Source: a virus. Taken from it: DNA of 64,000 nt. The notes under the pieces were generated by a model. The model searched no databases. It was not told where the DNA came from and saw only the letters and a program-made list of their open reading frames with translations. A program made the translations under genes and the position numbers. Where the stretch lies: IMG/VR virus record IMGVR_UViG_3300046168_000070, positions 129,845 through 193,844 of that record; one strand, written 5' to 3'. Shown piece by piece: positions 15,517 through 64,000 of this stretch. Numbering within the stretch: position 1 is the first letter of the stretch; every line of letters begins with the position of its first letter.

Positions 15517-16787
15517 AAGTAACATATCAACACGAGGTCACGACAAGCTTTGTCTTATGGTTTGATCATTTTCTTTTATCAAAAGGACAGGCTTTTAAGA
15601 ATCTTACAAGTACATTTTATCCTCAAGTTGATGCAAGACTTCCGAATAACGTAATATATGCGTCTCCGCATAAACAGTGGGTTACTGATGCTAGCATTGC
15701 AGGTGCTACGATACCAAATGGAGTATACAATGATGGAGTCTTTGTGCCTAGAGGAACTAGTGGATTAAAATTGGACTTCGAGAATGGTAGAGCTATACTG
15801 AACTCAGGGTTTTCAAGCTCCGCTAATATAACAGGAACATTTGCTCTTAAGGATTTTAATATATATGTCACTGATCAGAATGAAGAGGATTTAATAATTG
15901 AAAGCAACCATAAGATTAATAGTCGATTTTTTAGAGAAAACGCAGGAATACCTCCATATGACCAAGTGGTTCCAGCTATATTTATATCAAATGATGGCTT
16001 CAAAAATGACCCTTTCGCTTTTGGCGGAGAAGATAAAACTACGACATATTTTAAAGCTGCAGTTATAGCCGAGAATCTTTATACGCTTGACGGCGTCCTT
16101 TCTATCTTTAATGATTCAAATAGGACTATATTTAGCAAGATTGATTTTGAAGACCATCCAATGAATGAGTTTGGCGACTTTAAAAACGGCTCAAAAGTAG
16201 AAATATCTATTCCAAACTTAACTGCGAGCAGGTGGCATGGCGACCATACATACCAATATGGAGGTACTTTTACTATAAAGAGTTACGAAATAAACTCTCA
16301 AACAAAATTCTCGATAATTTATAGCGCTGCTGGAAGTAATGCAAGTTTTAATTTTAATAAAGAAACGAATGAAGTGACGGTATCTTACCCTAGATACGCA
16401 CAAGATAGGACATTCTTTACTTGGACGCCTGGTGGCGGAAATGACTATATTAGTGTCGGCAGCGACCCTTCGCTGAGGGATATTATTAATTTTATTAATA
16501 GCCAGCCAGGGTTTACGGCATCGACTACTGCAACTGAATACAACACTTTTTATGAGATTGCTCCTCCTGGGTTGAGTAGTGGAGAATATTATCCCGTGGA
16601 TGATGTCTCTGATATTCGTACATATAATTACGAAACTTTAGCGGAAAAAACTAAACAAGATTATTTTTTAATAGAATCTGTATCATGCTCTAGAATGTCA
16701 GATAATTTAAGAAAAGTTGTATTGGATAATTTATTTGTAGGTTTTATTGATTTCGAAGTGGCTCAAACTAGATTCCCTAGATTATAA
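15513..16787 (+). CDS. Probable tail terminator-like protein carrying a ~143-aa in-frame inserted domain (about 16194-16622)
   Basis: Directly upstream of the tube gene. Core VVPAIFISN...TTYFKAAVIAEN...GFIDFEVAQTR is terminator-like. The segment EISIPNL...PPGLSSGEY aligns with 62920-63309. Confidence 0.55.
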   Translation: MKVTYQHEVTTSFVLWFDHFLLSKGQAFKNLTSTFYPQVDARLPNNVIYASPHKQWVTDASIAGATIPNGVYNDGVFVPRGTSGLKLDFENGRAILNSGFSSSANITGTFALKDFNIYVTDQNEEDLIIESNHKINSRFFRENAGIPPYDQVVPAIFISNDGFKNDPFAFGGEDKTTTYFKAAVIAENLYTLDGVLSIFNDSNRTIFSKIDFEDHPMNEFGDFKNGSKVEISIPNLTASRWHGDHTYQYGGTFTIKSYEINSQTKFSIIYSAAGSNASFNFNKETNEVTVSYPRYAQDRTFFTWTPGGGNDYISVGSDPSLRDIINFINSQPGFTASTTATEYNTFYEIAPPGLSSGEYYPVDDVSDIRTYNYETLAEKTKQDYFLIESVSCSRMSDNLRKVVLDNLFVGFIDFEVAQTRFPRL

Positions 16788-16912
16788 AAAATTTTAAATT
16801 AATAACTAATTAAATTAAATAAAATTTAAGAATCTTACAGGAAAGATAAATAAAAATTTCCCAAAAAACAAAAAAAAATGTAATCGAGCATATCATCTAA
16901 TATTTTTTTATT

Positions 16913-18100: not shown

Positions 18101-18131
18101 CCTTAATTTAGAGATGTAATCTCTTAACTAT

Positions 18132-18159
18132 AAAAACACCCCGAAAGGGGTGTTTTTTT
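18132..18159 (+). terminator. Rho-independent terminator (probably bidirectional)
   Basis: AAAAACACCCC-GAAA-GGGGTGTTTTTTT: 11-bp stem, GNRA loop, T-tract, 31 nt after the tube stop codon. Confidence 0.9.
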
Positions 18160-18162
18160 ATT

Positions 18163-18168
18163 GTGTAA
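18163..18168 (+). promoter_or_regulatory. GTGTAA motif
   Basis: Just after the terminator, 8 nt before GTG 18177. Confidence 0.6.
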
Positions 18169-28940: not shown

Positions 28941-31900
28941 ATGGCTAAGAAGAATAATGTAAGACATAAGCCTGAGTTAGCTCAACAAAAAAACATAGAC
29001 AGGCACGTTGGGGAAGGCATTTCTTCAAAAGATTTTATTGTATTAAATGATGGTAAGATTGGAATAAATTTACCAGAGAATATTATCGGAGAATTAGGGA
29101 GTATAGATCCGAGAGTAGAATTAGATGTTGTAGGCGGAGCTAGATTTACTAGTGATTTAGAAGTTAGTGGTTATGGGATTTTTGGGGGGGATATAGATGG
29201 TGGAGGCCATATTAAGGTTAGAGACGAAATAACTGGAGGTGGGTATTTAAAAATCGGAGGCGATATAGATGGAGGAGGCCATCTTAGAGTAAAAGACGAA
29301 ATTACTGGCGGAGGTTACCTAAGGATCGGGGGCGATATAGACGGGGGCGGACACCTTAAAGTAAAGAATGAAATTACTGGGGGAGGCTACTTGAAGGTCG
29401 GGGGCGATATAGATGGAGGCGGACATCTTAAAGTAAAGGATGAAATTACTGGCGGAGGCTACTTGAAGGTCGGAGGTGATATAGACGGAGGCGGACATCT
29501 TAAAGTAAAGGATGAAATTACTGGCGGAGGCTACTTGAAGGTCGGGGGTGATATAGATGGAGGCGGACATCTTAAAGTAAAAGATGAAATTACTGGCGGA
29601 GGCTACTTGAAGGTCGGAGGCGATGCAAATATTTATGGAGACGCCTGGCTTCACAATGACTTAACTTTAGGTAATGATTTCTTAGTTAGTGGAGACTCGA
29701 GTTTTTTAGATACCGTTACAGTCGGGGATCCTTTTGAGCAGGATATAGCAACTTTTGCTGGTTCAGAAATTACATTAGGATCACAAAACTCTGGAGTATT
29801 AGCAGAGTTTGATGATGGGATTAAATTTTATGAAAGACCAACCGTAAGCGGAACTGGAGTTCTTCTAATTGGCGAAATTGATTCTAAGATATTTTCTAAA
29901 ATCAAAGTAGACGGGAATGGCGAAATAACGGGAGATTTATCAGTTGGAGGAAATCTTTATGTTTCGGGAGATACGTTCGTTCAGTCTGTTACAGATGTTT
30001 CCGTGACTGGCGATATTAGTGGTTATTCGATTGAGGGCGTTAGTGGTATATTTGAGACTGGAATTTTTCAGAGTGGATATTTTCAAAATTTATTAATTTA
30101 TAAATATTTAGATGTATTAAGTGGAATAACATCAAGCGGCTACCAAGTTTTAACTGAAGCAGATACAGGTATATATGATACTTTTTATTTAAATTCAAAT
30201 CCTAGTAATTTTATCAGCGAAGCTGAAGCGGTAGCTAGGTTTACGCCAACTGAGCCAGATCCATTTTGCTTTTTTTATGACGCAGAAAACCATAGAGGGA
30301 ATATATTAAAAACTTATTACCCGACAGAAGTCTCTAATAGGCCAGAAACTATATTATCTGGAATTTCTGTTTCGACCGCAAGAGATATTACTTTGAAGCT
30401 TAGATTTCATGGGCCTGATTATGCTTATGTTGGCTCTGGGTTTATAGATAGTAGTCAAATTCCAGTAAATAGGATAGAAGAGTATGGCACAGGAACTAGA
30501 GCTTTCAATGGATCATATAGATCTAATTTTAATGGAGAAACCACAATAACAGGCGAAGCTAATGGGAGGCAGGCTGTTATTACTATACACGAATTTGGAG
30601 AACCTCGAAATCCTACTGGACTTTACATTGATTTATATTCAAACTCCATACCTAAGCCTGGAGAAAACCAAGGAACTACAGCCTTAAAAAGTGGAGATAA
30701 AATTAATGTATTTGCTGAATTTGATCATAAAGAAATTGGAGCTATAACAATTTTACAGTCTGGAATTTCTCAATACGAGCAAAAATATTACAATAAAGAA
30801 TATTACCCATACGAATACGAAAATTATTTTAATTTTACAAATGATGGAGGTATTACATATTTATTTCAAAAAGAAATTACTGTTTCAAATGAAGTTGGGG
30901 ATCAAGGTTTTGCTGTTAAAATAGAAAATCCTCCTGGGGATGAATCTAATCCAGTTACATCAATAGATATAGGACTGTCTAGCGGCGTTAGACTTTTAAA
31001 TCAAGATTACCCTTCTGTTTTAGCTGGCATAGCCACTAACAGTGGTTATTATAGCGCTGGAAATGGATTGCATAATGTAGTAGCTTTGCATTATGATTTT
31101 CTAAATAATACTGGGAGTGATTTTATTATTACGGGAGAAATATTAAATTGGGATAGTACTACCGACTCAGTAACATATACCAAAGGAATTGATGGGTCTA
31201 GGGATAGATATAATTTATATGATAATATAACTTTAAACTCTAATTCAGTTGACTTTTCTTTAGCTGAAGAAGTTTTATCTAGTACAGGCAGGTTTGGAAC
31301 TAAAGCTGTTCAATATTCCACAGGGTTCCATAGTGAAGAAATACTTAGAATTTCTGGAGCAAAGGAATCAAATGGCGCTACTAATTTTTTAGATCTTATT
31401 ATACCTATAGAAAATGGACCTCAAGTCTCTGGCGCTTGGCTTGATAGCGTAGCTTCTGATTCTGTGCAACCAAATATAATCGGAACAACAGAAATTAAGG
31501 GTACTGATACAATTAGTGGATTTGCATATGTCTCTACGAAGGGTATTTTAGATTTATCTGCATCAAGTAATCCTGAGGATTTTAAATATCATGTACAGTT
31601 TAAATTAGAAGATTACGGAATCACTGAAGGTTCCGATTGGTTTTATCCTAATACGGTCGAACATTATTGCGATATAACTAAAGCTGGATCTACAGGCGAA
31701 ATGGTCTTATTTGGTTTTGATATAGATGTTACAGAATTGACTAGTAGAGATACCCAAAAAACATTTAAAATTTCATCAAGAATACATACTAGCGGAAATG
31801 AAACAAACGCTGGAAGTTTATTTCAAGCAGATACGATCCAGGGAGTAAATAATTATATAAGTGGACAATATGAACCGCTTGAGTCAAATAACTCGGAAGT

Positions 31901-32942
31901 ATATAAAGCTGGGTACGGATCAGGTATAGATTGCGATCCTTTCCCTGGTAAATTAAATCAAGCTCCACCAGAAGTCAATAATTCAGATTATCCAGAATTT
32001 TCAATATCTTTAATTGATTACCCAATAAGTCAAAGTGGATTAAAGGGAACTGAAACTGGTACTATATTTCATACAGCATCAAATTATGACAGTATCATAT
32101 ATTCTAATACAGGATTTGCAACAGGACAAATTGAATTTAATAATATAGAAGTATTTGAGCCAGCTAAATCAGTGCAGCGAACGGGCGGAGGTTATAACGT
32201 TGATCAAAATAATTTTATTATCACAGGTATAAAAACATCTAATGGAATGGTTAGGTCTATAGCTGACGTTGTTAATATAGCTGATACTGCACCAACGTAT
32301 AAAGTTTGTGATTTACCAACAGGCTTAAGTTCAATCTATGGAACTCCAAAAGATTACCATTTTTTTATTCAATCAGATCAAATCATGGTAAATGAAGTTG
32401 ATTTAGCTGTAGACCCAACCCAAATTAATGCTCCTAATTTAACAAAAAGTATAGCTAATCAATTTCCGACAGAAATACCAAATAATTTCATTATTTCAGT
32501 TTTAGATGAAAATACTAGAGGTGAATTTAATTTTGAGTTTACTGGATCAGGAATTGGGGGACAGGTTTCAACAACTTTAATTAACCCAGAGTATATTATT
32601 AGCGGTTTTGAGAGTAGAGAAATATATGCACTGCCCCAAAGCTTGTCTGCAGGCTTGGCTGAGATTTCAGGAGTTAACGTTTTTGATCCTTCTGGTGTTA
32701 TTTTAGAAAATACGTCGAAAGGTGGAACCGCTCCTAGTGGCGGCACTTTTTTTGAGTATCAGTATTATGCAGATGGAATTCAGATGGGGCCTGGGACTGA
32801 TATAGTTGATAAATTTACAACTACAAACTCACAAGGTTTAACAACAGGATTTGGAGCCACTCACATTTTTAATTTAGATAAATTAAATAGAGCTGCAAAT
32901 GCCGCGCTACCAGGAGCGAAATTTTTAATTAGAGAGGAATAA
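28941..32942 (+). CDS. Large virion structural / fibre-associated protein (1333 aa)
   Basis: KIGINLPE...LDVVGG fibre motif, 24-aa Gly-rich repeats, GDLSVGGNLYVSG modules shared with the next gene, long beta-rich C-terminal region. Confidence 0.7.
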   Translation: MAKKNNVRHKPELAQQKNIDRHVGEGISSKDFIVLNDGKIGINLPENIIGELGSIDPRVELDVVGGARFTSDLEVSGYGIFGGDIDGGGHIKVRDEITGGGYLKIGGDIDGGGHLRVKDEITGGGYLRIGGDIDGGGHLKVKNEITGGGYLKVGGDIDGGGHLKVKDEITGGGYLKVGGDIDGGGHLKVKDEITGGGYLKVGGDIDGGGHLKVKDEITGGGYLKVGGDANIYGDAWLHNDLTLGNDFLVSGDSSFLDTVTVGDPFEQDIATFAGSEITLGSQNSGVLAEFDDGIKFYERPTVSGTGVLLIGEIDSKIFSKIKVDGNGEITGDLSVGGNLYVSGDTFVQSVTDVSVTGDISGYSIEGVSGIFETGIFQSGYFQNLLIYKYLDVLSGITSSGYQVLTEADTGIYDTFYLNSNPSNFISEAEAVARFTPTEPDPFCFFYDAENHRGNILKTYYPTEVSNRPETILSGISVSTARDITLKLRFHGPDYAYVGSGFIDSSQIPVNRIEEYGTGTRAFNGSYRSNFNGETTITGEANGRQAVITIHEFGEPRNPTGLYIDLYSNSIPKPGENQGTTALKSGDKINVFAEFDHKEIGAITILQSGISQYEQKYYNKEYYPYEYENYFNFTNDGGITYLFQKEITVSNEVGDQGFAVKIENPPGDESNPVTSIDIGLSSGVRLLNQDYPSVLAGIATNSGYYSAGNGLHNVVALHYDFLNNTGSDFIITGEILNWDSTTDSVTYTKGIDGSRDRYNLYDNITLNSNSVDFSLAEEVLSSTGRFGTKAVQYSTGFHSEEILRISGAKESNGATNFLDLIIPIENGPQVSGAWLDSVASDSVQPNIIGTTEIKGTDTISGFAYVSTKGILDLSASSNPEDFKYHVQFKLEDYGITEGSDWFYPNTVEHYCDITKAGSTGEMVLFGFDIDVTELTSRDTQKTFKISSRIHTSGNETNAGSLFQADTIQGVNNYISGQYEPLESNNSEVYKAGYGSGIDCDPFPGKLNQAPPEVNNSDYPEFSISLIDYPISQSGLKGTETGTIFHTASNYDSIIYSNTGFATGQIEFNNIEVFEPAKSVQRTGGGYNVDQNNFIITGIKTSNGMVRSIADVVNIADTAPTYKVCDLPTGLSSIYGTPKDYHFFIQSDQIMVNEVDLAVDPTQINAPNLTKSIANQFPTEIPNNFIISVLDENTRGEFNFEFTGSGIGGQVSTTLINPEYIISGFESREIYALPQSLSAGLAEISGVNVFDPSGVILENTSKGGTAPSGGTFFEYQYYADGIQMGPGTDIVDKFTTTNSQGLTTGFGATHIFNLDKLNRAANAALPGAKFLIREE
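29184..29615 (+). repeat. 72-bp (24-aa) tandem repeat, 6 copies
   Basis: GGDIDGGGHLKVKDEITGGGYLKV x6. Confidence 0.95.
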
Positions 32943-32943: not shown

Positions 32944-35445
32944 ATGAGTAATTCTTTTGAAGATTTTGTAAATAATAATTTAGGCATAAGAATGCCTTTA
33001 ATTGAGGATAATGGACATCCTCACAGTAGCTCTAAGGCTGCGGGAATATTAGGTTCTAAGTATTTAGATTTAAACAATAACTATCTATACGAAAAAACAG
33101 GAGAAGATAATTCTAGTGACTGGGTTAAAATCGCTTCTTTAGGAGAGCGCAGAGATGTAGCAAGAGGCCCTAATTTTTCAATACAATTTAATAGTGGCGA
33201 TGTATTAGCTGGTAATCAATATCTAACTTTTTTAAATAATGAATTAAGTGGCGTCAGTGGGTTTTTCGACGAGCTTAAAGTTGAGACAATTATAGCGGAT
33301 AGTATGGAGGTTACTGGAGATTTAGCTGTAGGCGGAGATTTTTATGCATCAGGTGAAGCTTTCTTTGGAGAAGAAAAACCGAGTCTTAATAGGGCTGTTT
33401 TTTCTATTCAACCCAGTAGCCTTAGGGGGCATAATGATGCTGGGCAGGTTCGCGGAGGCCCGCAATCGAGTCAAGCTAATGGAAATATAACAATAGACAT
33501 AACTAGCACTAGTCCTTATTTCGGGAAATACAGTAGCTTAAGAATGGATTTTAAGAAGAATGGGGGTTCTTACAGTTTTTCTACAAGCGGGAACGTCTTA
33601 ACAATCAATGTTCCGATGCTAACAGGCAAGGGGCTGTCTAATGCCCGCTGGTATCCAAACGTTGGAACAGTTAGAGATTGGTTGAATACTCAAGTTGGCG
33701 TTTCCGCAGTTCTTAGTTCTGGTGTAGATCCAAACAAATCTGGGATACAGGCTGATGGACCAGGTTACATATACCCTGAGAGAGCTATAACAAAAAGTAT
33801 ACAAAGCTTAGGATTCCATTATGATTTAGTATATTCTGGAGAACAACTGAGTGGTGCCAGTGGATTTTTTGATGACTTTAAAGTAAGTGGAGATTTAGCT
33901 GTAGGTGGAAACCTTTATGTTTCAGGTGAGACTTTTATTCAGTCAGTCACAGATGTTTCGGTAACTGGGGATATTAGCGGGTATAGACTTGAGGGAACTA
34001 GTGGAGTATTTGATATAACAACTGGAGCCAGCGGTATCTTTGATTTAACAAGCGGAAGTAGTGGAGACTTTGATAATCTTTTTGTCTCTGGGGTTTCAGA
34101 AATAACATCAGGGCAGTTTTCTAAACAACTTACAATCAGCGGAATGACTGTGTTGACTGGGATTGATGACATTAGAACGAAAGCTGGAGGTCCAGATTAC
34201 GCGATACAATATGGAAGTGGTACTGGTTTTTATGGAAGTTCGAATTTAATATATTCTGGAGAACAGTTGAGTGGCGCTAGTGGATTTTTTGATGACTTTA
34301 AGGTTACTGGAGATCTGGCTGTAGGTGGAAACCTTTATGTTTCAGGTGAGACTTTTATTCAGTCAGTCACAGATGTTTCGGTAACTGGAGATATTAGCGG
34401 GTATAGACTTGAGGGAACTAGTGGAGTATTTGATATAACAACTGGAGTCAGCGGTATCTTTGATTTAACAAGCGGAAGTAGTGGAGACTTTGATAATCTT
34501 TTTGTCTCTGGGGTTTCAGAAATAACATCAGGGCAGTTTTCTGAACAACTTACAATCAGCGGCATGACCGTGTTGACTGGAGTTGAAACAGGGCATTTTA
34601 TCACTACTGGAGAAACTGGGATCTTTGTGACTACAGGTCAAACAGGAGATTTCGTTACTACTGGGTTGACGGGAGATTTTGTTACTACTGGGTTGACGGG
34701 AGATTTCGTAACTACTGGAGAAACTGGGATCTTTGTCACTACAGGTCAAACAGGAGATTTCGTTACTACTGGGTTGACGGGAGATTTCGTTACTACTGGG
34801 TTGACGGGAGATTTCGTAACTACTGGAGAAACTGGGATCTTTGTCACTACAGGTCAAACAGGAGATTTCGTTACTACTGGGTTGACGGGAGATTTCGTAA
34901 CTACTGGAGAAACTGGGATCTTTGTCACTACAGGTCAAACAGGAGATTTCGTTACTACTGGGTTGACGGGGGATTTCGTAACTACTGGAGAAACTGGAAT
35001 CTTTGTCACTACAGGTCAAACAGGAGATTTCGTTACTACTGGGTTGACGGGAGATTTCGTAACTACTGGAGAAACTGGAATCTTTGTCACTACAGGTCAA
35101 ACAGGAGATTTCGTTACTACTGGGTTGACGGGAGATTTCGTAACTACTGGAGAAACAGGGAGCTTTATTAATACAGGCACCGTTGTAGAATATATTGCTG
35201 AATTAAAAGGTTCAAACTCTTACTCTGAATTAGAGTATAATGCTAGTGGAGATGTAACAGGTTTGTTCACTTGGCCTAATGATAGTCAAGATTATTTAGT
35301 AAAAACAAAAAAGTTAACATATAATCAATCTGGATTATTGACTGGTGTAATACTAACTGAAGGTTTATTAGATGTGAAATTAATTACTGAATTAACATAT
35401 GATTCGAGCGGGAATCTAGAAAGCATAAAAAAGGATTACGCATGA
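32944..35445 (+). CDS. Virion structural / fibre protein with an inserted domain (33391-33780), a 420-bp duplication and a 9-aa repeat stalk
   Basis: Gly/Ser/Thr-rich fibre modules; repeats visible in both DNA and protein. Confidence 0.7.
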   Translation: MSNSFEDFVNNNLGIRMPLIEDNGHPHSSSKAAGILGSKYLDLNNNYLYEKTGEDNSSDWVKIASLGERRDVARGPNFSIQFNSGDVLAGNQYLTFLNNELSGVSGFFDELKVETIIADSMEVTGDLAVGGDFYASGEAFFGEEKPSLNRAVFSIQPSSLRGHNDAGQVRGGPQSSQANGNITIDITSTSPYFGKYSSLRMDFKKNGGSYSFSTSGNVLTINVPMLTGKGLSNARWYPNVGTVRDWLNTQVGVSAVLSSGVDPNKSGIQADGPGYIYPERAITKSIQSLGFHYDLVYSGEQLSGASGFFDDFKVSGDLAVGGNLYVSGETFIQSVTDVSVTGDISGYRLEGTSGVFDITTGASGIFDLTSGSSGDFDNLFVSGVSEITSGQFSKQLTISGMTVLTGIDDIRTKAGGPDYAIQYGSGTGFYGSSNLIYSGEQLSGASGFFDDFKVTGDLAVGGNLYVSGETFIQSVTDVSVTGDISGYRLEGTSGVFDITTGVSGIFDLTSGSSGDFDNLFVSGVSEITSGQFSEQLTISGMTVLTGVETGHFITTGETGIFVTTGQTGDFVTTGLTGDFVTTGLTGDFVTTGETGIFVTTGQTGDFVTTGLTGDFVTTGLTGDFVTTGETGIFVTTGQTGDFVTTGLTGDFVTTGETGIFVTTGQTGDFVTTGLTGDFVTTGETGIFVTTGQTGDFVTTGLTGDFVTTGETGIFVTTGQTGDFVTTGLTGDFVTTGETGSFINTGTVVEYIAELKGSNSYSELEYNASGDVTGLFTWPNDSQDYLVKTKKLTYNQSGLLTGVILTEGLLDVKLITELTYDSSGNLESIKKDYA
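33826..34581 (+). repeat. Direct duplication of ~335 bp at 420-bp offset
   Basis: 33826-34161 nearly identical to 34246-34581 (YSGEQLSGASGFFDDFKV...LTISGMTVLTG). Confidence 0.9.
34591..35157 (+). repeat. 27-bp (9-aa) tandem repeat, 21 units, with higher-order pattern
   Basis: Units GDFVTTGLT, GDFVTTGET, GIFVTTGQT. Confidence 0.95.
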
Positions 35446-53084: not shown

Positions 53085-53085
53085 A

Positions 53086-54688: not shown

Positions 54689-54993
54689 AGTATTTACTAA
54701 CAATAACTTTACTATTATCATCTTGTTTTTCTGCTAATATAAAAAACAGTAAAAAATACATTCAAGATCAAAATATAGCTATAGATACAATTGATACAAA
54801 TAGAGACGGCAATATATCTATATCAGAAATAAATTCATTTAAATCAAATTCAAATAAAACAGAAACAAAAAAAACGACACCATTTAAAATTTTTATTATC
54901 TTAATAAGTTCAGTACTACTTATATCAACAAGCCCCTATTTACTAAATATAATTCAAAATAAAAATGTCTCTAAGAATAAACAGAAGGAATAA
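54685..54993 (+). CDS. Lipoprotein with EF-hand loop and C-terminal transmembrane helix (unimolecular-spanin-like)
   Basis: Lipobox LSSC at C14, DTNRDGNISISE EF-hand loop, PFKIFIILISSVLLISTSPYLL TM helix. Confidence 0.6.
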   Translation: MKYLLTITLLLSSCFSANIKNSKKYIQDQNIAIDTIDTNRDGNISISEINSFKSNSNKTETKKTTPFKIFIILISSVLLISTSPYLLNIIQNKNVSKNKQKE

Positions 54994-57900
54994 TTTTTTA
55001 GAGATTAAAGAAGGCTCTAATTTAAAAATATTTAAAGCTCTACCTAAATATTTAAAAAGTGAAATACCTGATCATGACTTCCCTTACCACTTAGGTTATT
55101 GCGGCGACACAAACTATGGGCTATACTCAGAACCATCACTTCACCATAATCAAGACACATCCTTTTTAACAAGTTCAGCTGTAAAATTTGACGGCAATGA
55201 GTTCCTGGAAACTAATGAGATTAGCTTAACTAATAAAAATAATTTTTCAATTTCTACCTGGATAAAAACAAGCTCAAATCTCGAAGAAGTTTTAATTACG
55301 GATATGAGTTACCAGAATAGCGGCTCCTTTCAATTAAAATCCAATAATCAAAATAATAGACCAGAATTTTCTGTATTTGATGGTGTTAGCTTTATCTCCG
55401 TTACAGGTCATTCAGGCATAAATGATAATGACTGGCACTTTTTAAACGTAAATTTTTCATGCGATCAGGCTACTAAAAATTCTAGCATAGAAATGTATAT
55501 CGACTCAGAACTTCAAAATTCAAAAAGTATAACGGGGTTTATAGATTTAGAAAACATAACAGCTAGCGGGTCTTTTAGCTCGAGAGAAAATGAGCTATAT
55601 AAACTTTTTGACAAAAATAATTCGACTTATATAGAAATGTCTGGAAGCCAAGAAGAATCTGATTTTTATTTTGCAAACCCAATAACAGGCGGGATAGATA
55701 AAATTAGATACAGAGCTATAAATGATAGCGCTGCTTATGGCGAAGTTAAAGCCTCACTAATACTAAAAGATAAAATAACAGAAGAAGTATCAACGTTTGA
55801 TTTTCAATCTTTTATATCTTCAAATTTTGATAGTAACAAAGGAGTTAGTAACTCAAGTACAATAGCTAAAACGCAAACCCCAGTTCCCAATGCTATACCA
55901 GAATCTGGAATTTCTTATGGTCCAGTTGATTCTATTTTTTCCACGGGATGCCCCACGGATTGCAGTTATTTTGATCTGCGAGGTAAAAAATGGTTTCCAT
56001 TGCAAGAATATGACATAAACTATAATCACGAAAGTTTATACAATAGAGGTTTTTACCCGTTAAGGCCCCAAGACGAAATAGATTACGAAACTGATTCAGC
56101 TGGAAATATTATTGAGCATGAACCTAAATATACTTATGCTAATTTCAACACATGGCAGACAGATACTCCTTTTTTATATGGCAGAGACTGGGACGCTCCT
56201 CAGTTCTTAGATAAAGATATAATAGGCTTTCGTTATAAATATTCTCCAAGCACGACCGAGAATCAAACTTTTGGAATGGACTTTTCTAGAATAATAGAAT
56301 TTGGTCTATACTTAAGAGGCAATGAATACAGCTTACTAGAAACCTTACCATTAAATAGTTTTGAAGGACTTACATCTAATCACAACGAATCTTTTAATCT
56401 TACAATAGGCTCAACCGCCTCAAGCAATAAAACAAATTTTTTCAACGGTAGCGTAGATCAGATACTACTTTTAGATAAAACTTTAACACAAGATGATATA
56501 AATTCTTTTTACTCAGAAAGAGATTCAATTGAGTACAGTGCTCAACTAGCAGATGAATTAAAAGTTATCTCGTGGTACGATTTTTCTAATACCAATATAA
56601 TCGGATGGGACAGGCACAACAAAGTCACAACTCAAGAATTAGTTAGGCTTTACAATTTTAACAATACAAGAAACGACTCAAGTTCTTATTCAGTAAATCC
56701 TGAACTTTTTGGCAGCTTAAACTTTTCCACGGAAACAGTTAACTTTCCAGGGTATGCTGCGTTCTTCAATGGGTCAAGTTACTTATTTGACCCAGGTGGG
56801 AGAGAAATGGATTTTCAATCTAATTTGACAATAGAATGTTTTTTAAATTTTTCAACTATCCCAGAGGACGATCAACAAACTATACTGTCTTCCAAAAACT
56901 TTCAAGTATCAAACACGTCCTTTGAATATTATTTTAAAAATGATAAAATGTATTTTGACATCTATCAATTGGACCAAAAAATAATAACCGTAGAAAGTGA
57001 AACGCTTAACATATCGACTGATAAATATTACCATATAGCAGTATGTAGAAACAGAAATACCATTAATTTATTTTTTAATCAATCTTTATGCGGCACAGCA
57101 GAACTTCCATTTTACGTACCAATTTCTGATCCAGAAAACGGAATTTATATTTTAAATGGTTTTCACGGGTATGTTCAAGATTTAAGAATAATTCAAGACT
57201 CTGCTATATATGAGCCTAATCTATATATAGATGACTTCTATAAAAGGCTCGACAATCAATTTGTCGAAAGGCATAATTTATACACGACCTCTCACTATCC
57301 ATTACAGGAATCAGTTACCATGAGTGATAGTCGGGGAATATATATACCACAAGGGCATTATCTAGAAACAGCGCACGAGCATAAAGCTTTTAATTTTCAT
57401 AAAAATAGCTTCTCCATTTGCCTTTGGTTTCGATTAGAAAACTTGAACAAATCAGGCTTCATATTAGGCTCCTGGAACGACGAGGGAGGCTACAGTCATA
57501 GTTACGCACTAAGGTATGTTAAAAATTTTAGAAATCAAGTTAATACTTTGGTTTTCTTAGCCTCCGAAGATGGCACCAACTTTAGGTCTGTTAAAACCGC
57601 CAAATTAGAAAACAATATAATCTCTCCAGAAAGCTGGTACTTTGTTTCTATAACATATAATGGAAACGACAAATCTCTAAACATGTATTTGTATAGCGAT
57701 TCAGAGTTTATAGACTCAACAAGCATGAAAGTTAATTCATTCTTCACGATTCCAAGAAGAGATGATTTTCAAATAAATGGAGTCAAACATACAGAATCTA
57801 GTAATACTTTTCTTGATCTATCATTAAGTCAATTATTTTTCTCTTATAGGACTTTCTCCTTTATAGATGTTCAGAAATTCTGGAATTCGGGAGTAGGTAT

Positions 57901-60900
57901 AACATACGATGAAAATGATATAAACTTTAATAGAGATTTAATTGCTTGGTTTGATTTTAGCGAAGGCTCTATAAACGATATTAACGGCAACAAACATCTC
58001 TCTTCATCGACGACCTTCTCTATCGTCGAAGGTAGAAAAAAATTAGAATTAATAGATGATGGATCTGAAATATTCTTAGGTAAAATGCCTGGAGGAAGTA
58101 ACTTACTTTTCAATATGTCTGGTAATAGAGCTATATACAAAACCTCAGGAATAAATAGCTTACCAAGCATTGAATTCAATAAAGATAACCTATCTTTTTT
58201 AGACTCCAACTTTGAATTAGATTTCACTAGTAGCTTTACTTTGTATTTTTGCTTTCAAAGCTTAGGAAACAACAATGACTTTGCTCCTATCGTCGATTTT
58301 TCAAATTCTGAGTCTGAAGGATTATCGATACTATGGAAAGATACTCCAGACCAAAATTACCTTGGTGAGTTAAAACTCCTAATTAACGGAGAAGAATTAA
58401 TTCTCAAAGAAGGCAACTTTATAAGAAACACTAACGTGGTTTCTCTTGAATGGAATGTTCATAAAGAAAAATTATTCTTAACAATAAACAACTCAAGGTT
58501 ATCATCTGCTCCAAGAGCTTTAACTAAAACAGGTCTACAAACCAATTTTGCTAAGACTCCACTGTCTTTAGGTAAATTCTATTACGACTTCAACAATGAA
58601 CTAATAACATTTAATGGATTATTATCTGAGTTGATTTTAAATAAAAATTATTCAGATCCTAAAATTTTGGAATATTTTTCATGCAAGTATAACGCAATAC
58701 ATCCTGGGTATCCAGTAGATTATATATATGATGATGATAATCCTTCAATGCTTTTTGATCTTTCAGAATTAAAGCAAACTATAGGCGAAGGCTCTACGTC
58801 TCTCGGCAGACTTAAATGTGATTTACAAAATCCAATTTTTTCAATCGTAGACAGCGAAGATTTCACTATAAATGAAGACGGCTACATTGCATTAACATCT
58901 CCAGCGGACAGAGAAATAGATTCATATACATTTACAATACTGGTTGAAGATGAAGACTCAGATCTAAGCGAAACAATTAGCTTCATAAGTTATGTCCAAA
59001 TAGACAATATTATCGCAATCATTAATGACTCTAATCTCGTTAAATATGTTTCTTCAGAAAATAAATCAGCAGGGAAAAACTTAGGTCGAGTATCAACAAC
59101 CGAACCTGTAGATTGGTCAATTTTTTCAAGCTCAAGCGCCAGCGTTTCTATCGACTCTTTAGGTAATATTGAATTAGCAGAAGACATCCCAGATGGAGAG
59201 ACTACCTTTAGTTTTACGATTTCAGCAACAGACTACCAGGATAACATAACATCAACAACGCATACGGTTGAAATAGTTGATCTAGAAGGACACACAGAGA
59301 TAGAATTCATCCCAACATATAATAACTACCTTGATATTGAGACTATCGTTCTGCCAAACTCTGCATGGATAGAATTTGAGACAGAGGGAGAATCAGATAT
59401 TTTTGAGATTAAAACAAGTTCGCTTTTTAACTCAAATGGGTTACAAGTACTCCAACAGTATAGTACTATAGATAAAAGGGAGGAAACGCACTCTCTTTCA
59501 GATTTTTTCTATGATGAAACTCTAACTTATAAAACCGCACTAAGCCCAACAACCTCGCTAAATCCAGAACATTCTTATATAGACAGCGAGACGCTAAATA
59601 ATAAATCGACAGAAACAAACCCCACCAGTTACGATCAATATTATTCAGGGGTTATTGATCTTTTTAATGAAAGCGACACAACTCCGTCAGCTGCTGATTT
59701 TACAAAACCAACAGAACTCACTACTCATTTACTCAACAATAAATTTACTGCGGATCAGGCCCCAATCTCCACCTATTTTGATTCATCAATAATTGAAAAC
59801 CCTGAACTCTCTGCCTGTAAAAAGGTTGTGGACAATTTAAAATATATTGCAGACGGAAACCCATACTCAGTAGACCCTCCAGATTTTGATATTGGACGTA
59901 ATGCCCATTATAAAATCAGGATAAATACATCCTACAATCAACGTAATAAACCGTGCAAGATTAGGCTTAAAACGGTTGGGCTCACAATAATATCTTCATA
60001 CTCAGCGACGGCTCCTGACATCAAAGTAAAAGCCGACGAAAAATCCTTCTTACAGCATTTATCATTTGGCGGTCCAGGCTTACAAACTAATATAAATAAA
60101 TTAACATTAGACTGCGAAACAGATCAATTAATCAGCTTGCGATACTTTTTACGTGCAGCAAGTTCTTGTAATGAAATTGAAAAAATAAACTTTAATACAA
60201 AAAACGTAATTACTTTATTCGAGGCATTTAGTTACATAAACACTAATAATGAAAGCATAAATAATAGTATTAAAAATTTCTTAAATTCATTATCTTTTGA
60301 AAATTTAATTGTTGCAACAAATTGCTTCCGATCTTCTCGTTTTACAGGATCTAACGATCTGAATCTCTCGTCTTGGAACACTTGGAATTTACAAAAAATT
60401 GATTCAATGTTCGAAAACGCTGAATTCTACGAAGGCGGATTATTATTTTCTTCTCAAGACATCGACTCTATAGATATGCCTAGACATTATGGCTCCTCTA
60501 GTGAATTTGATGACGTAAATCCTGACTCATTCCTGCCGAATGATTCGTACATAACTTATTTTAGCGGGATAATGAATTCAACTTTTTATACAAAAAAAAT
60601 AAGAAGCGCTCGATCTTGTTTTCAAAACATTTTAATATCATCCCAAGACCGATTTTCCACCAACTTAAATCAACAATATAGGATTGAAGAAGTAATTGAT
60701 TATCCTACTAAAAATAAAAACGGCACAGATTATAGAGTAGCATTCATGAGCTCTCAACATGGTAGATTCGTTAGATATATACGAAATTCAATAAATAACG
60801 AGTATCAAGAATTAGGAAATATAGATTGCCTCCTAAATACAGAACTTAATTTAAACTGCTTTGAATTAGACCTGTGTTGCGCATCAAGAAATATGTTTTA

Positions 60901-60991
60901 TAACACTAAGGTTGAAAAGATTAAAATCAAAAATTTAAATTTCACCAGAAAATTTGATTTAAGTTATTTTTTCTACAACTCAGAATTTTAA
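54965..60991 (+). CDS. 5' part of a giant multidomain virion/adhesin protein: LamG domains, discoidin-like insert, cadherin-like domains, DUF285/BspA-like LRRs
   Basis: FSISTWIKT...WHFLNV...FNGSVDQILL (LamG); FTINEDGYIALTSPADRE.DSYTFTILVED (cadherin-like); LSSWNTWNLQKIDSMFENA (DUF285-like). Continues past frameshifts. Confidence 0.75.
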   Translation: MSLRINRRNNFLEIKEGSNLKIFKALPKYLKSEIPDHDFPYHLGYCGDTNYGLYSEPSLHHNQDTSFLTSSAVKFDGNEFLETNEISLTNKNNFSISTWIKTSSNLEEVLITDMSYQNSGSFQLKSNNQNNRPEFSVFDGVSFISVTGHSGINDNDWHFLNVNFSCDQATKNSSIEMYIDSELQNSKSITGFIDLENITASGSFSSRENELYKLFDKNNSTYIEMSGSQEESDFYFANPITGGIDKIRYRAINDSAAYGEVKASLILKDKITEEVSTFDFQSFISSNFDSNKGVSNSSTIAKTQTPVPNAIPESGISYGPVDSIFSTGCPTDCSYFDLRGKKWFPLQEYDINYNHESLYNRGFYPLRPQDEIDYETDSAGNIIEHEPKYTYANFNTWQTDTPFLYGRDWDAPQFLDKDIIGFRYKYSPSTTENQTFGMDFSRIIEFGLYLRGNEYSLLETLPLNSFEGLTSNHNESFNLTIGSTASSNKTNFFNGSVDQILLLDKTLTQDDINSFYSERDSIEYSAQLADELKVISWYDFSNTNIIGWDRHNKVTTQELVRLYNFNNTRNDSSSYSVNPELFGSLNFSTETVNFPGYAAFFNGSSYLFDPGGREMDFQSNLTIECFLNFSTIPEDDQQTILSSKNFQVSNTSFEYYFKNDKMYFDIYQLDQKIITVESETLNISTDKYYHIAVCRNRNTINLFFNQSLCGTAELPFYVPISDPENGIYILNGFHGYVQDLRIIQDSAIYEPNLYIDDFYKRLDNQFVERHNLYTTSHYPLQESVTMSDSRGIYIPQGHYLETAHEHKAFNFHKNSFSICLWFRLENLNKSGFILGSWNDEGGYSHSYALRYVKNFRNQVNTLVFLASEDGTNFRSVKTAKLENNIISPESWYFVSITYNGNDKSLNMYLYSDSEFIDSTSMKVNSFFTIPRRDDFQINGVKHTESSNTFLDLSLSQLFFSYRTFSFIDVQKFWNSGVGITYDENDINFNRDLIAWFDFSEGSINDINGNKHLSSSTTFSIVEGRKKLELIDDGSEIFLGKMPGGSNLLFNMSGNRAIYKTSGINSLPSIEFNKDNLSFLDSNFELDFTSSFTLYFCFQSLGNNNDFAPIVDFSNSESEGLSILWKDTPDQNYLGELKLLINGEELILKEGNFIRNTNVVSLEWNVHKEKLFLTINNSRLSSAPRALTKTGLQTNFAKTPLSLGKFYYDFNNELITFNGLLSELILNKNYSDPKILEYFSCKYNAIHPGYPVDYIYDDDNPSMLFDLSELKQTIGEGSTSLGRLKCDLQNPIFSIVDSEDFTINEDGYIALTSPADREIDSYTFTILVEDEDSDLSETISFISYVQIDNIIAIINDSNLVKYVSSENKSAGKNLGRVSTTEPVDWSIFSSSSASVSIDSLGNIELAEDIPDGETTFSFTISATDYQDNITSTTHTVEIVDLEGHTEIEFIPTYNNYLDIETIVLPNSAWIEFETEGESDIFEIKTSSLFNSNGLQVLQQYSTIDKREETHSLSDFFYDETLTYKTALSPTTSLNPEHSYIDSETLNNKSTETNPTSYDQYYSGVIDLFNESDTTPSAADFTKPTELTTHLLNNKFTADQAPISTYFDSSIIENPELSACKKVVDNLKYIADGNPYSVDPPDFDIGRNAHYKIRINTSYNQRNKPCKIRLKTVGLTIISSYSATAPDIKVKADEKSFLQHLSFGGPGLQTNINKLTLDCETDQLISLRYFLRAASSCNEIEKINFNTKNVITLFEAFSYINTNNESINNSIKNFLNSLSFENLIVATNCFRSSRFTGSNDLNLSSWNTWNLQKIDSMFENAEFYEGGLLFSSQDIDSIDMPRHYGSSSEFDDVNPDSFLPNDSYITYFSGIMNSTFYTKKIRSARSCFQNILISSQDRFSTNLNQQYRIEEVIDYPTKNKNGTDYRVAFMSSQHGRFVRYIRNSINNEYQELGNIDCLLNTELNLNCFELDLCCASRNMFYNTKVEKIKIKNLNFTRKFDLSYFFYNSEF

Positions 60992-61504
60992 GATTTATAG
61001 AACTACCTGACGCTACCCCCGATTAAACCTAGTGAAAGTTTAGCTTATAGCATTACTAATATGTTTGGTAATTGTTATTTTTTAGAAAATTTAGGACTAA
61101 AAACACTAGAAGGAAAGTATGCTCAATTTGAAAACCATAAATCATTCATAGATGGGTTCTCATTTTTCAATCTTGATTATTGCGTAAATGGATCAGCTGC
61201 ATTTAGTAACTGTAAATCAATTACAAACATATCAATACCTCGATTTACTAATATATTAGATTTAAGTAATTTTGCTTATGGATGTCTGGGCGTTTCGAAG
61301 ATTGAAGGTTTCGCCACTCACTCAGAAAATAATCCTAAAATTGTATATTTATCCAAAAAAGCAGACGGAGAGTTTGACGGCATGACTGAATCTGAAGAAG
61401 TTGATTGGCTTATTGAAAATAATCTTCATTTGCAAACTTGCAATACTAAAAACTTACTTAGCTTAAAATACGCCTTTTATAATTGTGGCCAAATTCAAAA
61501 TTAG
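60988..61504 (+). pseudogene. Middle fragments of the same gene (two compensating shifts plus ORF 61061-61504)
   Basis: The reading YNSEF/LRFIELPDATP/IKPSESLAYSITNMFGNC needs -1 at T4 (60986-60989) and +1 at C5 (61016-61020). LRR pattern continues. Confidence 0.7.
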
Positions 61505-64000
61505 TTTTTACAGGTTTATCTACGAATAAAATCAAGGACTTTTCATATACATTTGGCAATTGTGAAAAATTAAGGGAAATTAGAATAGGCTTAGAATACC
61601 ACACCAACAATTATAGAAATGAAATTATAACTACGGATCGATACAACATACAACAGTACTGGGAAAATAAAGCTGAAGTGCCCGCAGAATCTATTAACTT
61701 TGTCGGCTCTTTCGGCTCTAGTAAAGGTAATGTTAAAATAAATGGCAAAGGAGATGTTTATGCAGAGTCGATTGGAGGATCAGAAGTTAAGGTTTTTCAA
61801 TACAATGAATCATTAAATCAATGGGATCAAAAAGGAGAAACAATCAGCCCTCCGTCAAATTCTTATAATAAATTTGGTCATGCTATTGAAATTGATGAAA
61901 GTGGAGATAGAATTATTATATCAGATTTTCCAGAACCTAGCTCAGCAGGCGCAGGTTATGCGCAAATATTCGAATGGAGCGGCGGTTCCTGGGGTCAGTT
62001 AGGCGACACTATAGTATCTGAAGAAAGTTTAAATGATACTTTCGGAGCAGATGTATCGATAAGTAAAGATGGTAATATAGTTGCAATATCCACAGAGGGA
62101 GATCCATTAACTCGAAACGCATCGCACCAAGTCGAATTTCAAGTGCTAACATTCACCAATCAACCAGGCGGATTTTTAACTATATATTTATCCGAGACAT
62201 ATTCTTCATACACAACCTTTGTTATTGAATTTTCTGCGCCCGAAACAGATCCAACAATAACGCAAAATGACACTACCTTAACTTTAAACTTCCCATATAA
62301 TAACTATGGCGTCTACTACCCTTACATAATCGATATAATAAACTGGCTCAACCTTCAGCCAGGCATTAGCGCAGAAGCATCCAGCACCGTAAACTTAAAT
62401 AACTCAGGATTAGAGCAAAGTGAATCAGGGCAGACAGCCTACATTTCGCCCATCACCCTTGCTAAAGGCACAAAAATCTTTTCTCTGGAAGATTCAAACT
62501 GGGTGCAGTTAGGTGAAACTATATCCGCTGGGCAATCAATAAATTTAAATCATAATGGTAGTATTATATCAATAGGAGATCCAGAATATAATACAGATAC
62601 AGCTAATAATGTTGGCAGAGTTGAGGTGTTTGAATTTAATTCAGGAGCTTGGATTAAATTAGGTTCAACAATAGTAGGCCCTGACACTAGTCCTATATTA
62701 ACAAAAACAGTTGCTAATATTGCTACAACTGACGGCGGAGCTTACGCAGATCCAGCGAGAGTCATTGAATTAGACTTAACAGAAGAATATTTAAATGTAG
62801 AAAATTTTTCTTTGAATTTTTATCAAAATGCAAGTGAGGCAGTCTTAAGTAACGGAGGATTAGATTTAGCAATCAATTTAGATTTTTCTGCGGCAGATGT
62901 TAATGAAGACTTTTTCTTTACAATACCTGTTCAAAGAAGAGAGAGCGGCCCACAATGGTGGGGACCAAATTATGTCTATCAGCGTGGAGGTGCCATTACA
63001 GTTTCTGGGGCTGGACTGAACGTAAACACCACTTTCACATTAACATTTACTGCAGCTGGAACCCCAGCAACCTTCGATCATGATATTGACAATAATACAG
63101 TAACCCTAACATACCCAAGGTTTTCATCTAATCAGACTTTTAGAGTCTGGACTACAGGTGGAGGTTCAACGTATTTAAGCATGGGCACAGATCCCTCTGT
63201 GATAAGTTTGGTTAATTTTATAAATAATCAGAGTGGATTTAGCGCGACAACTACAGCAGCGACATCGTTTGAAAACCGATCTCCTCCTGGAACATTGCAA
63301 GGAACATACAATTCTACTTATTCTGGAGAAGGTCAAGGCCCCTATGTTGAACAATTTGTAAATTGGATCAATAATTCAGTTGAAAATATCTCTGCCAGAA
63401 TTACAGTTCCTTATGATAGTGAAACAAACTCAGGTATTGAACTAGATCAGTTTTTAAGACCTCAAGACAGATCTGATATTGTAAAATCTTACACAGATGC
63501 AGACGATAATAGGTTTGGGTACAATGACATAAATTTTAATGGTAACAGGGTTATTGTCGGCGCTACTCATAGCAATACAGAGGTTGGAGAAGACTCTGGC
63601 TTAGTTAAAATTTTTGATTACAACGGCACTGAATGGACTCAAGTAGGCACCACCATAAATGGGCACGAGTCATTAGCTAAAGAAGGTTTAGTTTCTATCA
63701 ACAAGGTCGGAAACATAATAATTACTGGAGGAATAAATAAAAGAAACTTTAGAATTTTTAAAGAAATTAATAGTGAATGGGTCGAGCAACATTCAGAATC
63801 TCACATAATTTCTTCCACAAAAGAAGTTTCGGTAGATATGGATTACTCAGGAGACAACACAATATCAATACAGTCATCTGATGCAGTAGTTCGAACTAGA
63901 AAAGAAAGAGAAATACAAATTTACAATGTTAATGGCTTCTTTGATACTAGAGAATGTAGAGATTTTAGTTCAATGTTCCAAAGTTGCCTGATGTTAAATC
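61498..64000 (+). CDS. 3' part of the giant protein: LRR interrupted by a 7-blade beta-propeller with inserted domains (open to the window end; absent from the track)
   Basis: Frame open 61498-64000: KLVFTGLSTNKIKDFSYTFGNCEKLREI, then blades such as FGADVSISKDGNIVAIS and RVEVFEFNSGAWIKLGSTI, then FFDTRECRDFSSMFQSC. Confidence 0.85.

What the first reader, a model, noticed from the sequence alone, without database searches (positions are those of the whole stretch)
16194..63480. One ~110-140 aa domain family inserted in-frame five times into three unrelated virion proteins, once inside a copy of itself
Seen: the insert in the terminator-like gene (16194-16622: W.GDHTYQYGG...FSIIYSAAGSNASF...NEVTVSYPRY...TWTPGGG..YISVGSDPSL.DIINFINSQPGFTASTT...PPG) aligns end to end with 62920-63309 (WWGPNYVYQRGG...FTLTFTAAGTPATF...NTVTLTYPRF...VWTTGGG..YLSMGTDPSV..LVNFINNQSGFSATTT...PPG). 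A second pair, 33391-33780 and 62128-62454, shares LT(I/L)N.P...YP....WLN.Q.G.SA..SS.V..N.SG...YI.P. A fifth copy (about 62740-63480; ...GPYVEQFVNWINNSVENISA...NSGIE) is split by the 62920-63309 copy. All share F.I.F...LT..P...P...+IN++N.Q.G.SA. Inference: each copy interrupts a host fold at a loop (terminator KNGS|YNY, propeller loops), so this looks like a spreading in-frame domain cassette used to decorate the virion, conceptually like Rickettsia palindromic elements but structural. I cannot name the family.
Basis: partly seen in the sequence, partly recalled or inferred. Interest (0 to 1): 0.8.

Follow-up and report, generated by a model that had tools for sequence, protein, structure and literature searches.

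The report
Swappable surface domain in phage tail proteins
An uncultured 194-kb marine phage and a few close relatives carry a previously undescribed small protein domain. It has been inserted in-frame into loops of several tail proteins and is gained, lost and swapped between related phages, much as Ig-like decoration domains behave in other phages.

Summary
The observation largely holds. Four copies at the stated coordinates are clearly homologous: A1 and A2 share 42% identity, B1 and B2 share 29%, and an A-versus-B profile comparison gives 97% probability (E 4e-11). The fifth, split copy is probable but not proven: both halves align in the right order to one B-type domain, but only weakly, and the structure model failed.

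- **Terminator presence/absence:** 13 proteins (window included) carry an insert at one site and form one clade. More than 100 homologues are empty.
- **Swapping:** A- and B-type inserts are exchanged independently of the flanks (host 97% versus insert 44%; host 84% versus insert 93%).
- **Fibre:** an otherwise identical variant lacks the B1 module.
- **Other sites:** relatives carry copies in the tail sheath and the giant protein's N-part, where the window is empty.

The family has no Pfam or PDB sequence match, and only about six real hits among 1.84 billion representative proteins. Copy borders show no DNA-level mobile-element signature, and the genome has no reverse transcriptase. The fold and the function remain unassigned.

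My reading is a lineage-restricted, promiscuous, recombination-shuffled virion surface domain. That makes it a new variant of a known kind.

The parts
15513..16787 (+). Tail terminator gene (P0001, 424 aa), host of copy A1
16191..16628 (+). Copy A1 (A-type), inserted between FGDFKNG and YNYE of the terminator (P0001 residues about 227-372)
   Evidence: Absent from more than 100 homologues at exactly this position. In the model, strands span 225-316, a helix spans 321-329 and strands span 335-368, with block pLDDT mostly 73-95 and one dip to 61. 42% identical to A2.
32944..35445 (+). Fibre-like protein (P0002, 833 aa), host of copy B1
   Evidence: PHROGs tail-fibre families match at E about 1e-10, and there is a sub-threshold Pfam collagen-repeat signal. 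The N-terminus is conserved in homologues that lack B1.
33391..33780 (+). Copy B1 (B-type)
   Evidence: 29% identical to B2. 57-59% identical to the B-type inserts of terminator homologues P0011-P0015, and groups with them at 94/95 support.
33316..33888 (+). 191-codon module (B1 plus flanking fibre-repeat parts) that is missing from variant P0135
   Evidence: P0135 matches P0002 at every one of its 633 aligned residues but lacks residues 125-315 and 603-611. The first deletion lies between 18-nt direct repeats TGGAGATTTAGCTGTAGG near 33315 and 33888.
61483..63999 (+). FG-GAP (PF14312-type) propeller section of a giant protein (P0003 reading frame, open at the window end)
   Evidence: Homologues carry PF14312. 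The relative P0124 (4915 aa) is colinear with window ORFs 54965-60991 and 61001-61504, this frame, and the genome start.
62128..62454 (+). Copy B2 (B-type), between an 'AIS..' strand and the next 'G.K.F' strand of the propeller repeat
   Evidence: The ortholog copy in P0124 is 61% identical.
62740..62919 (+). Probable N-half of copy C
   Evidence: Gapless alignment to B2 residues 12-58 with empirical p 0.01, and p 0.0015 against P0011. Only 2.8 bits against the HMM. Not confirmed by structure.
62920..63309 (+). Copy A2 (A-type), lying inside probable copy C
   Evidence: 42% identical to A1. 77% identical to the P0124 copy. Moderately confident in the model, with block pLDDT 54-85.
63310..63480 (+). 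Probable C-half of copy C (helix motif YVEQFVNWINNSVENISA plus the NSGIE tail)
   Evidence: 12.8 bits against an HMM built without it, versus a maximum of 9.6 for 1000 shuffles. Aligns to B2 residues 64-96 with p 0.003, and to A2 with p 0.0005.
28941..32942 (+). Tail sheath (1333 aa) with an EMPTY site at residues 1074/1075 (about nt 32163)
   Evidence: PHROG tail sheath family matches at E 9e-23. 26-29% identical to phiKZ-like sheaths. Sheath homologues in G001 (1432-aa ORF) and P0130 carry a B-type copy of 126-158 aa at this site.
54965..60991 (+). N-terminal part of the giant protein, with an EMPTY site at residues 355/356 (about nt 56030)
   Evidence: P0126, which matches the G001 3571-aa ORF, aligns 1-355 and 481 onward to this ORF. 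It carries a 125-aa A-type copy in between.

Best explanation
This is a small, independently folding alpha/beta domain family of about 105-145 aa. It has seven to nine strands, one conserved helix carrying the (F/W)(I/L)N.Q.G.SA motif, and its first and last strands lie at the two ends of the insert. The family is confined to one lineage of uncultured marine myoviruses.

Where it sits: in loops of virion proteins. These are the tail terminator, the tail sheath (in relatives), a fibre-like protein, and several sites of a giant LRR/FG-GAP protein. It very probably projects from the particle surface.

How it spreads (shown): it entered the terminator once, in the ancestor of one small clade. After that, the cassette at that fixed site was repeatedly replaced by divergent A- or B-type copies, through recombination with breakpoints close to the domain borders. 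Related copies also moved between different host proteins; the fibre's B1 is nearest to the B-type terminator inserts. Modules can be lost by recombination between short direct repeats.

How new sites arise (inferred): by rare illegitimate recombination between copies within or between co-infecting genomes. Only in-frame insertions into tolerant surface loops survive. One such insertion probably landed in the variable loop of another copy, giving A2 inside C.

Function (inferred, about 45%): an exposed binding or adhesion module that evolves faster than, and is exchanged independently of, its conserved host proteins. This is analogous to the Ig-like domains of other phages.
For: - Family is real.
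- Host folds and families.
- Presence/absence in the terminator: insert-bearing proteins form one clade (SH-aLRT 95), sister to the empty P0016/P0017 (99), nested among empties. A one-change fit was never reached in 500 shuffles.
- Cassette swapping, given as host identity / insert identity: P0010-P0007 97% / 44%; P0010-P0006 84% / 93%; P0015-P0007 91% / 20%; P0015-P0012 85% / 94%.
- A and B types are interleaved on the host tree, and well-supported (starred) branches force at least two changes.
- In the domain tree, the A and B clades each have 100/100 support, and terminator inserts fall in both. B1 of the fibre groups with the B-type terminator inserts.
- Empty sites and empty alleles.
- A complete 184-kb relative (G003) has no copy, while G001 (203 kb) has three copies at partly different sites.
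- Rarity: only about six genuine hits among 1.84 billion representative proteins.
- The domain is confidently modelled as a compact unit inside the terminator.
- Inserts are far more divergent than their hosts: 35-37% versus 81-87% identity to P0001.
Against: - No structure match establishes the fold. Surface exposure is not shown by any assembly model.
- Function is pure inference. No ligand-binding motif was identified.
- The nested copy rests on weak sequence statistics, and its model failed.
- Some swaps may be ordinary mosaic recombination with one breakpoint in the gene rather than cassette-exact exchange. In P0010-P0006 and P0015-P0012 the C-terminal flank travels with the insert.
- The empty fibre allele P0135 could be an assembly collapse across repeats.
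- Virion location of the giant protein is assumed.
Confidence: 0.72

Rival explanations
1. The domains are docking modules that bind each other or another virion part. Copies on the neck (terminator), sheath, fibre and giant protein would hold fibres or appendages folded against the tail, or bundle them, in the way T4 whiskers retain long tail fibres. They would not bind anything outside the particle. The evolutionary pattern (insertion and swapping) would be the same; only the function differs.
For: The same family appears on parts that lie along one axis of the particle: terminator, sheath, fibre-like protein and giant repeat protein. Within G001, the giant-protein copy groups weakly (81/85) with that genome's own terminator subtype, as co-evolving partners might.
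Against: Different genomes place the domain on different sets of proteins, and a complete relative has none at all, which is hard to reconcile with an obligatory partner pair. Copies within one genome are only 18-42% identical. No interface prediction was possible.
Confidence: 0.18
2. The domain is ancestral and vertically inherited in these proteins, and the pattern reflects repeated deletions rather than insertions and transfers.
For: Deletion does occur: P0135 lacks the B1 module between 18-nt direct repeats. The empty sister terminators P0016/P0017 keep a 14-residue loop that could be a scar.
Against: Insert-bearing terminators are one small clade nested within 284 homologues that are otherwise about 282 aa, so ancestral presence would need many independent precise losses. 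Both deep types, A and B, occupy the same terminator site in near-identical hosts. The profile finds the family almost nowhere else among 1.84 billion representatives.
Confidence: 0.06
3. It is a DNA-level selfish in-frame element, like Rickettsia palindromic elements or a MITE, or it is driven by a dedicated enzyme such as a diversity-generating retroelement.
For: Many in-frame insertions of similar length at unrelated sites. Full copies have slightly higher GC than their host genes (0.39-0.44 versus 0.34-0.39).
Against: Copies share no nucleotide similarity beyond 47 nt at 72% over the conserved helix. Border repeats are no longer than 6 nt inverted or 8 nt direct, except for the fibre's own repeat unit. 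The genome has no reverse transcriptase. Copies within the genome are at most 42% identical, so there has been no recent burst.
Confidence: 0.04

Closest known systems
Ig-like domains (Big_2, I-set, FN3) on tailed-phage structural proteins. Fraser, Maxwell and Davidson 2007 is cited in PMC7602432; Fraser et al. 2006 J Mol Biol is from my own knowledge.
   Same: A small accessory domain found promiscuously on tail fibres, baseplate, tail and head proteins and decoration proteins. It is dispensable for the host fold, patchy among relatives, and thought to mediate weak surface adhesion (PMC7602432).
   Different: No Ig-type Pfam family matches. The model contains a conserved alpha-helix. All copies here are internal loop insertions rather than terminal additions. 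The family is confined to one narrow lineage. At one site, two deep subtypes are swapped.
Outer (insertion) domains of contractile-tail sheath proteins (T4 gp18 domains I-II, phiKZ gp29) and outer domains of flagellar axial proteins (FlgE/FlgK D2, FliD D2-D3)
   Different: The similarity is below any reliable threshold, and there is no sequence relation. The window's own sheath lacks the domain.
Insertion (I) domains of HK97-fold capsid proteins (P22 I-domain, phi29 BIG2)
   Same: An accessory domain inserted in a loop of a conserved virion fold and present only in some lineages (PMC7602432).
   Different: Different host proteins. Those inserts are each fixed in one host protein, with no evidence of movement between several host proteins or of subtype swapping.
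Rickettsia palindromic elements
   Same: Repeated in-frame insertions into unrelated genes at positions the host fold tolerates.
   Different: RPEs are recognisable DNA repeats with palindromic ends that encode no conserved fold. Here there is no DNA-level repeat and there are no end signatures, and the unit is a folded protein domain.

Membership tests
Tail terminator proteins (T4 gp15 / lambda gpU / Mu / T5 p142), for host P0001 | Terminator fold | tested here: met
Tail terminator proteins, for host P0001 | Encoded among tail morphogenesis genes of a contractile-tail phage | tested here: met
   The sheath (28941-32942), fibre-like genes and a giant tail-region ORF lie within 20 kb on the same strand.
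Phage Ig-like domains (Pfam Big_2, I-set, fn3 and relatives) | Sequence match to an Ig-type Pfam model | tested here: not met
   No Ig-type Pfam family at E<=0.1 in any of the three proteins. The only beta-sandwich hint is Neocarzinostat at E 0.05, 14 bits against a 25-bit cut-off.
Phage Ig-like domains | All-beta sandwich fold | tested here: inconclusive
   The model shows 9-11 strands plus a conserved helix at 321-329. Fold searches of the domain gave no reliable match.
Phage Ig-like domains (as a functional class: promiscuous accessory virion domain) | Patchy presence on several classes of virion protein | tested here: met
   Found in terminator, sheath, fibre-like and giant protein, with empty alleles or orthologues for at least four of the sites.
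Sheath outer/insertion domains (Phage_sheath_1, Gp18_domIII_N) | Fold or sequence similarity to known sheath outer domains | tested here: inconclusive
In-frame selfish DNA repeats (Rickettsia palindromic elements / MITE-like) | Nucleotide-level repeat family with palindromic or inverted ends, or target-site duplication | tested here: not met
   blastn between copies gives at best 72% over 47 nt. Terminal inverted repeats are at most 6 nt. Direct repeats across the borders are 6-8 nt, except for the fibre's own repeat unit.
Diversity-generating retroelement target domains | Reverse transcriptase in the genome | tested here: not met
   No PF00078 match in the 193,844-bp genome; the positive controls matched.

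The most novel reading that the evidence does not exclude
The domain is the payload of a directed process rather than of rare accidents. This would be a loop-seeking, self-nesting coding cassette that phages of this lineage actively copy between virion genes, for example through short peptide or DNA 'fences' recognised by a phage recombination function. Subtype swapping at fixed sites would then serve as a programmed way to vary several surfaces of the particle at once. That would be a new class of in-frame mobile protein module and a natural toolkit for loop display on phage tails.
Probability: 0.08. Interest if true: 0.85.

Novelty: new variant of a known kind. Interest (0 to 1): 0.55.

Why it matters
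This is a clean natural example of how phage particles acquire new surface features. One small domain is caught at several stages:

- a single gain in a core neck protein that is otherwise length-invariant across hundreds of homologues;
- cassette-exact swaps between near-identical hosts;
- transfer between fibre, terminator, sheath and a giant adhesin-like protein;
- loss between short repeats;
- probably self-nesting.

It identifies loops in the tail terminator, the sheath and an FG-GAP propeller that tolerate a folded insert of about 140 aa. That is directly useful for engineering display sites on contractile tails. The domain family itself is undescribed and extremely narrow in distribution, so its ligand, if it has one, may point to what these abundant uncultured ocean phages attach to.

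Tried and rejected
- **Sequence family searches:** Pfam and PHROGs scans of the three host proteins, and a PDB sequence-profile search, gave no match to the domain.
- **Cultured phages:** tblastn of the terminator and of the neighbouring 395-aa protein against cultured phage records found nothing.
- **Fold searches, whole terminator model:** Foldseek PDB and BFVD searches were dominated by the host fold or by low-TM EF-G alignments, and said nothing about the insert.
- **ESM Atlas:** feature scores were 0.75-0.78, below the level that shuffled sequences reach a third of the time.
- **The search for related loci:** the domain alignment had no stretch conserved enough to search with. Single-segment scans of IMG/VR returned only one near-identical 28-kb contig.
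- **The look-up of encoding contigs:** I therefore could not fetch the genomes that encode the B-type terminators to ask whether their fibres also carry B1.
- **hhalign of copy C:** only the helix half was detected against the A/B alignment (probability 16%).
- **Propeller alignment:** MAFFT alignment of the propeller region with bacterial FG-GAP proteins forced B2 onto blades, and was not usable to fix the insertion point.
- **Rejected ideas:** the extra nested pair at the genome start was rejected as a separate copy because it is the contig's end overlap. DGR and RPE-like mechanisms were also rejected.
Full report
**Setting**

The window is the last 64 kb of a 193,844-bp IMG/VR virus record rated 100% complete. 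The first 843 nt of the contig repeat its last 844 nt at 99.9% identity, so the record closes on itself. An apparent extra pair of copies at the genome start is therefore the same A2/C copy seen twice.

The region encodes tail genes of a contractile-tail phage with no close cultured relative. A 1333-aa protein matches a PHROG tail-sheath family at E 9e-23, and its C-terminal third is 26-29% identical to phiKZ-like sheaths. The terminator and a neighbouring protein have no tblastn match in 50,697 phage records. Homologues come largely from marine metagenomes, including Tara samples.

**The observation**

| Pair | Identity | Length | E-value |
|---|---|---|---|
| A1 vs A2 | 42% | 119 aa | 2e-37 |
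| B1 vs B2 | 29% | 107 aa | 1e-10 |
| A1 or A2 vs B2 | 28-31% | 97-103 aa | 1e-5 to 1e-6 |

These are BLASTP values in a tiny database. I then enlarged each type with copies from relatives and compared an A-only profile with a B-only profile. hhalign gave 97.2% probability and E 3.8e-11 over 86 columns, and each HMM finds members of the other type. A and B are one family with two deep clades, each supported 100/100 in the domain tree. Invariant positions in a six-copy alignment are Q21, G24, T27, P66, P92, Q104, G106, A109 and G126. A six-frame HMM scan of the whole genome finds no other copy.

**The fifth, split copy**

- An HMM that excludes this copy scores the C-half (63310-63480) at 12.8 bits, against a maximum of 9.6 for 1000 shuffles. 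The N-half (62740-62919) scores only 2.8 bits.
- With shuffle controls, the N-half aligns without gaps to B2 residues 12-58 (p 0.01; p 0.0015 against a B-type terminator insert).
- The C-half aligns to B2 residues 64-96 (p 0.003; p 0.0005 against A2).
- The two halves are therefore colinear and complementary. A2 sits exactly where the family varies in length: the loop before the helix, where the longer A-type copies (A1, A2, P0005, P0007/P0008) carry an extra hairpin.
- The AF2 model of this region failed outside A2, with mean pLDDT 45.

I rate self-nesting at about 70%. It is not shown.

**The hosts**

- *P0002.* This is fibre-like. PHROG tail-fibre families match at about 1e-10, it carries collagen-like TGxTGxFVT repeats, and its N-terminus is shared with many phage proteins.
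- *P0003.* This is not a separate gene product. A relative's single 4915-aa protein, P0124, is colinear with window ORFs 54965-60991 and 61001-61504, with the P0003 frame, and with two ORFs at the genome start. The P0003 section is an FG-GAP (PF14312) propeller region similar to Bacteroidota surface proteins. Both insert positions fall between an 'AIG-like' strand and the next 'G.V.VF-like' strand of the repeat. I read that from the sequence; the MAFFT alignment was not usable for this.

**Presence and absence**

*Terminator.* Of 284 homologues, twelve of 416-429 aa carry an insert at the same site (FGDxKxG | YNY). The rest of the 120 listed are mostly about 282 aa with nothing there, including two at 69% host identity. 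On a tree of the host part alone, the 13 insert-bearing proteins (window included) form one clade (SH-aLRT 95). That clade is sister to the two nearest empties (99) and is nested among empties. A single gain explains this best. In IMG/VR, only two of the 80 related loci kept (of 303 confirmed) carry the domain within 10 kb.

*Fibre.* P0135 is identical to P0002 at all 633 aligned residues but lacks residues 125-315, which hold B1 and adjoining repeat parts. The deletion lies between 18-nt direct repeats. P0136 and more distant homologues also lack B1.

*Other sites, seen in relatives.*
- The 203-kb relative G001 has three copies: in its terminator, in a 1432-aa ORF and in a 3571-aa ORF.
- The 1432-aa ORF and the metagenomic protein P0130 are sheath homologues. 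Both carry a B-type copy of 126-158 aa at window sheath residues 1074/1075, where the window is empty.
- The 3571-aa ORF, which matches P0126, carries a 125-aa A-type copy exactly between window residues 355 and 356 of ORF 54965-60991. The window is empty there too.
- A complete 184-kb relative, G003, has no copy at all.

The family therefore occupies at least six sites in four or five proteins, and each genome has a different set.

**Swapping at the terminator site**

Five terminator homologues (P0011-P0015) carry a B-type insert where the window and seven others carry an A-type. On the host tree the two types are interleaved, and starred (well-supported) branches force at least two changes. 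Host and insert identities are decoupled:

| Pair | Host identity | Insert identity |
|---|---|---|
| P0010 vs P0007 | 97% (both flanks 96-97%) | 44% |
| P0010 vs P0006 | 84% | 93% |
| P0015 vs P0007 | 91% | 20% |
| P0015 vs P0012 | 85% | 94% |
| P0012 vs P0013 | 99% | 73% |

In some pairs the C-terminal 53 residues travel with the insert. Some exchanges are therefore ordinary mosaic recombination with one breakpoint near the insert's start. Others are cassette-exact.

Relative to P0001, inserts are 35-37% identical where hosts are 81-87% identical. The fibre's B1 is 57-59% identical to the B-type terminator inserts and groups with them at 94/95 support. That is much closer than its 28% to B2 in its own genome. 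A closely related copy therefore sits in different host proteins in different phages.

**How it spreads**

- Copies in the window share no nucleotide similarity beyond 47 nt at 72% over the helix motif.
- Inverted repeats at the borders are no longer than 6 nt.
- Direct repeats across the borders are 6-8 nt, except for the fibre's own repeat unit.
- The genome has no reverse transcriptase.

This rules against an RPE/MITE-like DNA element and against a diversity-generating retroelement. The pattern fits rare illegitimate recombination that creates new in-frame loop insertions. Homologous recombination among co-circulating phages then exchanges alleles, and occasional deletion between short repeats removes them.

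An earlier report from this scan, on the tape-measure gene of the same genome (e1-5773902, not tested here), also describes modules gained, lost and exchanged between relatives. That fits a generally modular tail region.

**What the domain is**

There is no Pfam match at E<=0.1, no PHROG match to the domain and no PDB sequence match at E<=10. A six-copy profile searched against 1.84 billion representative proteins found ten hits. Four are additive low-complexity repeat artefacts. The six genuine hits all belong to this phage group: P0124, P0015, P0125, P0126, P0128 and P0130.

**Function**

Function is inferred. The evidence is location on tail parts, insertion into conserved cores, dispensability, much faster divergence than the hosts, and exchange of subtypes. 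Together these fit best with an exposed binding or adhesion module, like the Ig-like domains found on about a quarter of tailed phages in five classes of virion protein (PMC7602432). A docking role between virion parts is the main functional rival.

**Verdict**

- The interpretation of a spreading, in-frame decoration cassette is supported, and extended by new sites, empty alleles and subtype swaps.
- The RPE analogy holds only as a metaphor.
- The kind of phenomenon, promiscuous accessory domains on phage structural proteins, is known.
- What is new is the family itself, its exclusive use of internal loops (including the tail terminator and sheath core), the A/B hot-swapping at one site, and the probable self-nesting.

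Noticed in passing
window 60980-61020, 61490-61505; genome C1:380-450 and about 3520-3545: A relative encodes one continuous 4915-aa protein (P0124) where this assembly has five ORFs. The breaks sit at short homopolymer runs. One is a local double frame shift that creates TAA and TAG at 60989 and 60998. Another is an A5 run at 61496-61500, where one extra A would fuse the frames. The two copies of the contig's end overlap themselves differ by one base. Assembly indel errors are likely, though real frameshifts or slippage cannot be excluded.
   Followed up: partly
window 63157-64000 and genome C1:1-843: The contig's first 843 nt equal its last 844 nt (99.9%). The record is circularly closed or terminally redundant, although IMG/VR classes it as linear.
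   Followed up: yes
window 34500-35200 (P0002 residues about 520-750): There is a long tandem array of 9-residue TG(E/Q/L)TG(I/D)FVT units in the fibre-like protein. Variants P0134 and P0135 differ from the window only by whole-unit deletions, so the repeat number is polymorphic or collapses in assembly.
   Followed up: partly
window 28941-32942 and 38303-39328: The 1333-aa sheath has a roughly 1000-aa N-terminal expansion. It shares PHROG modules (phrog_5070, phrog_7964) with the fibre-like protein and with a 341-aa protein. The sheath homologue P0130 shares 33-43% identical stretches with the fibre repeats. A second set of modules is therefore shared between sheath and fibres.
   Followed up: no
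terminator homologues P0098 (343 aa) and P0104 (466 aa), not in the window: Some terminator homologues that lack the loop insert instead carry proline-rich repeat extensions and an extra domain at the C-terminus. This is a different route to decorating the same protein.
   Followed up: no
terminator homologues P0016/P0017, at the site equivalent to window 16191: The nearest empty terminators have a 14-residue loop (SGDYNGGKDATYNY) where the 282-aa forms have 4 residues. This could be either a precursor loop or a deletion scar of the cassette.
   Followed up: no
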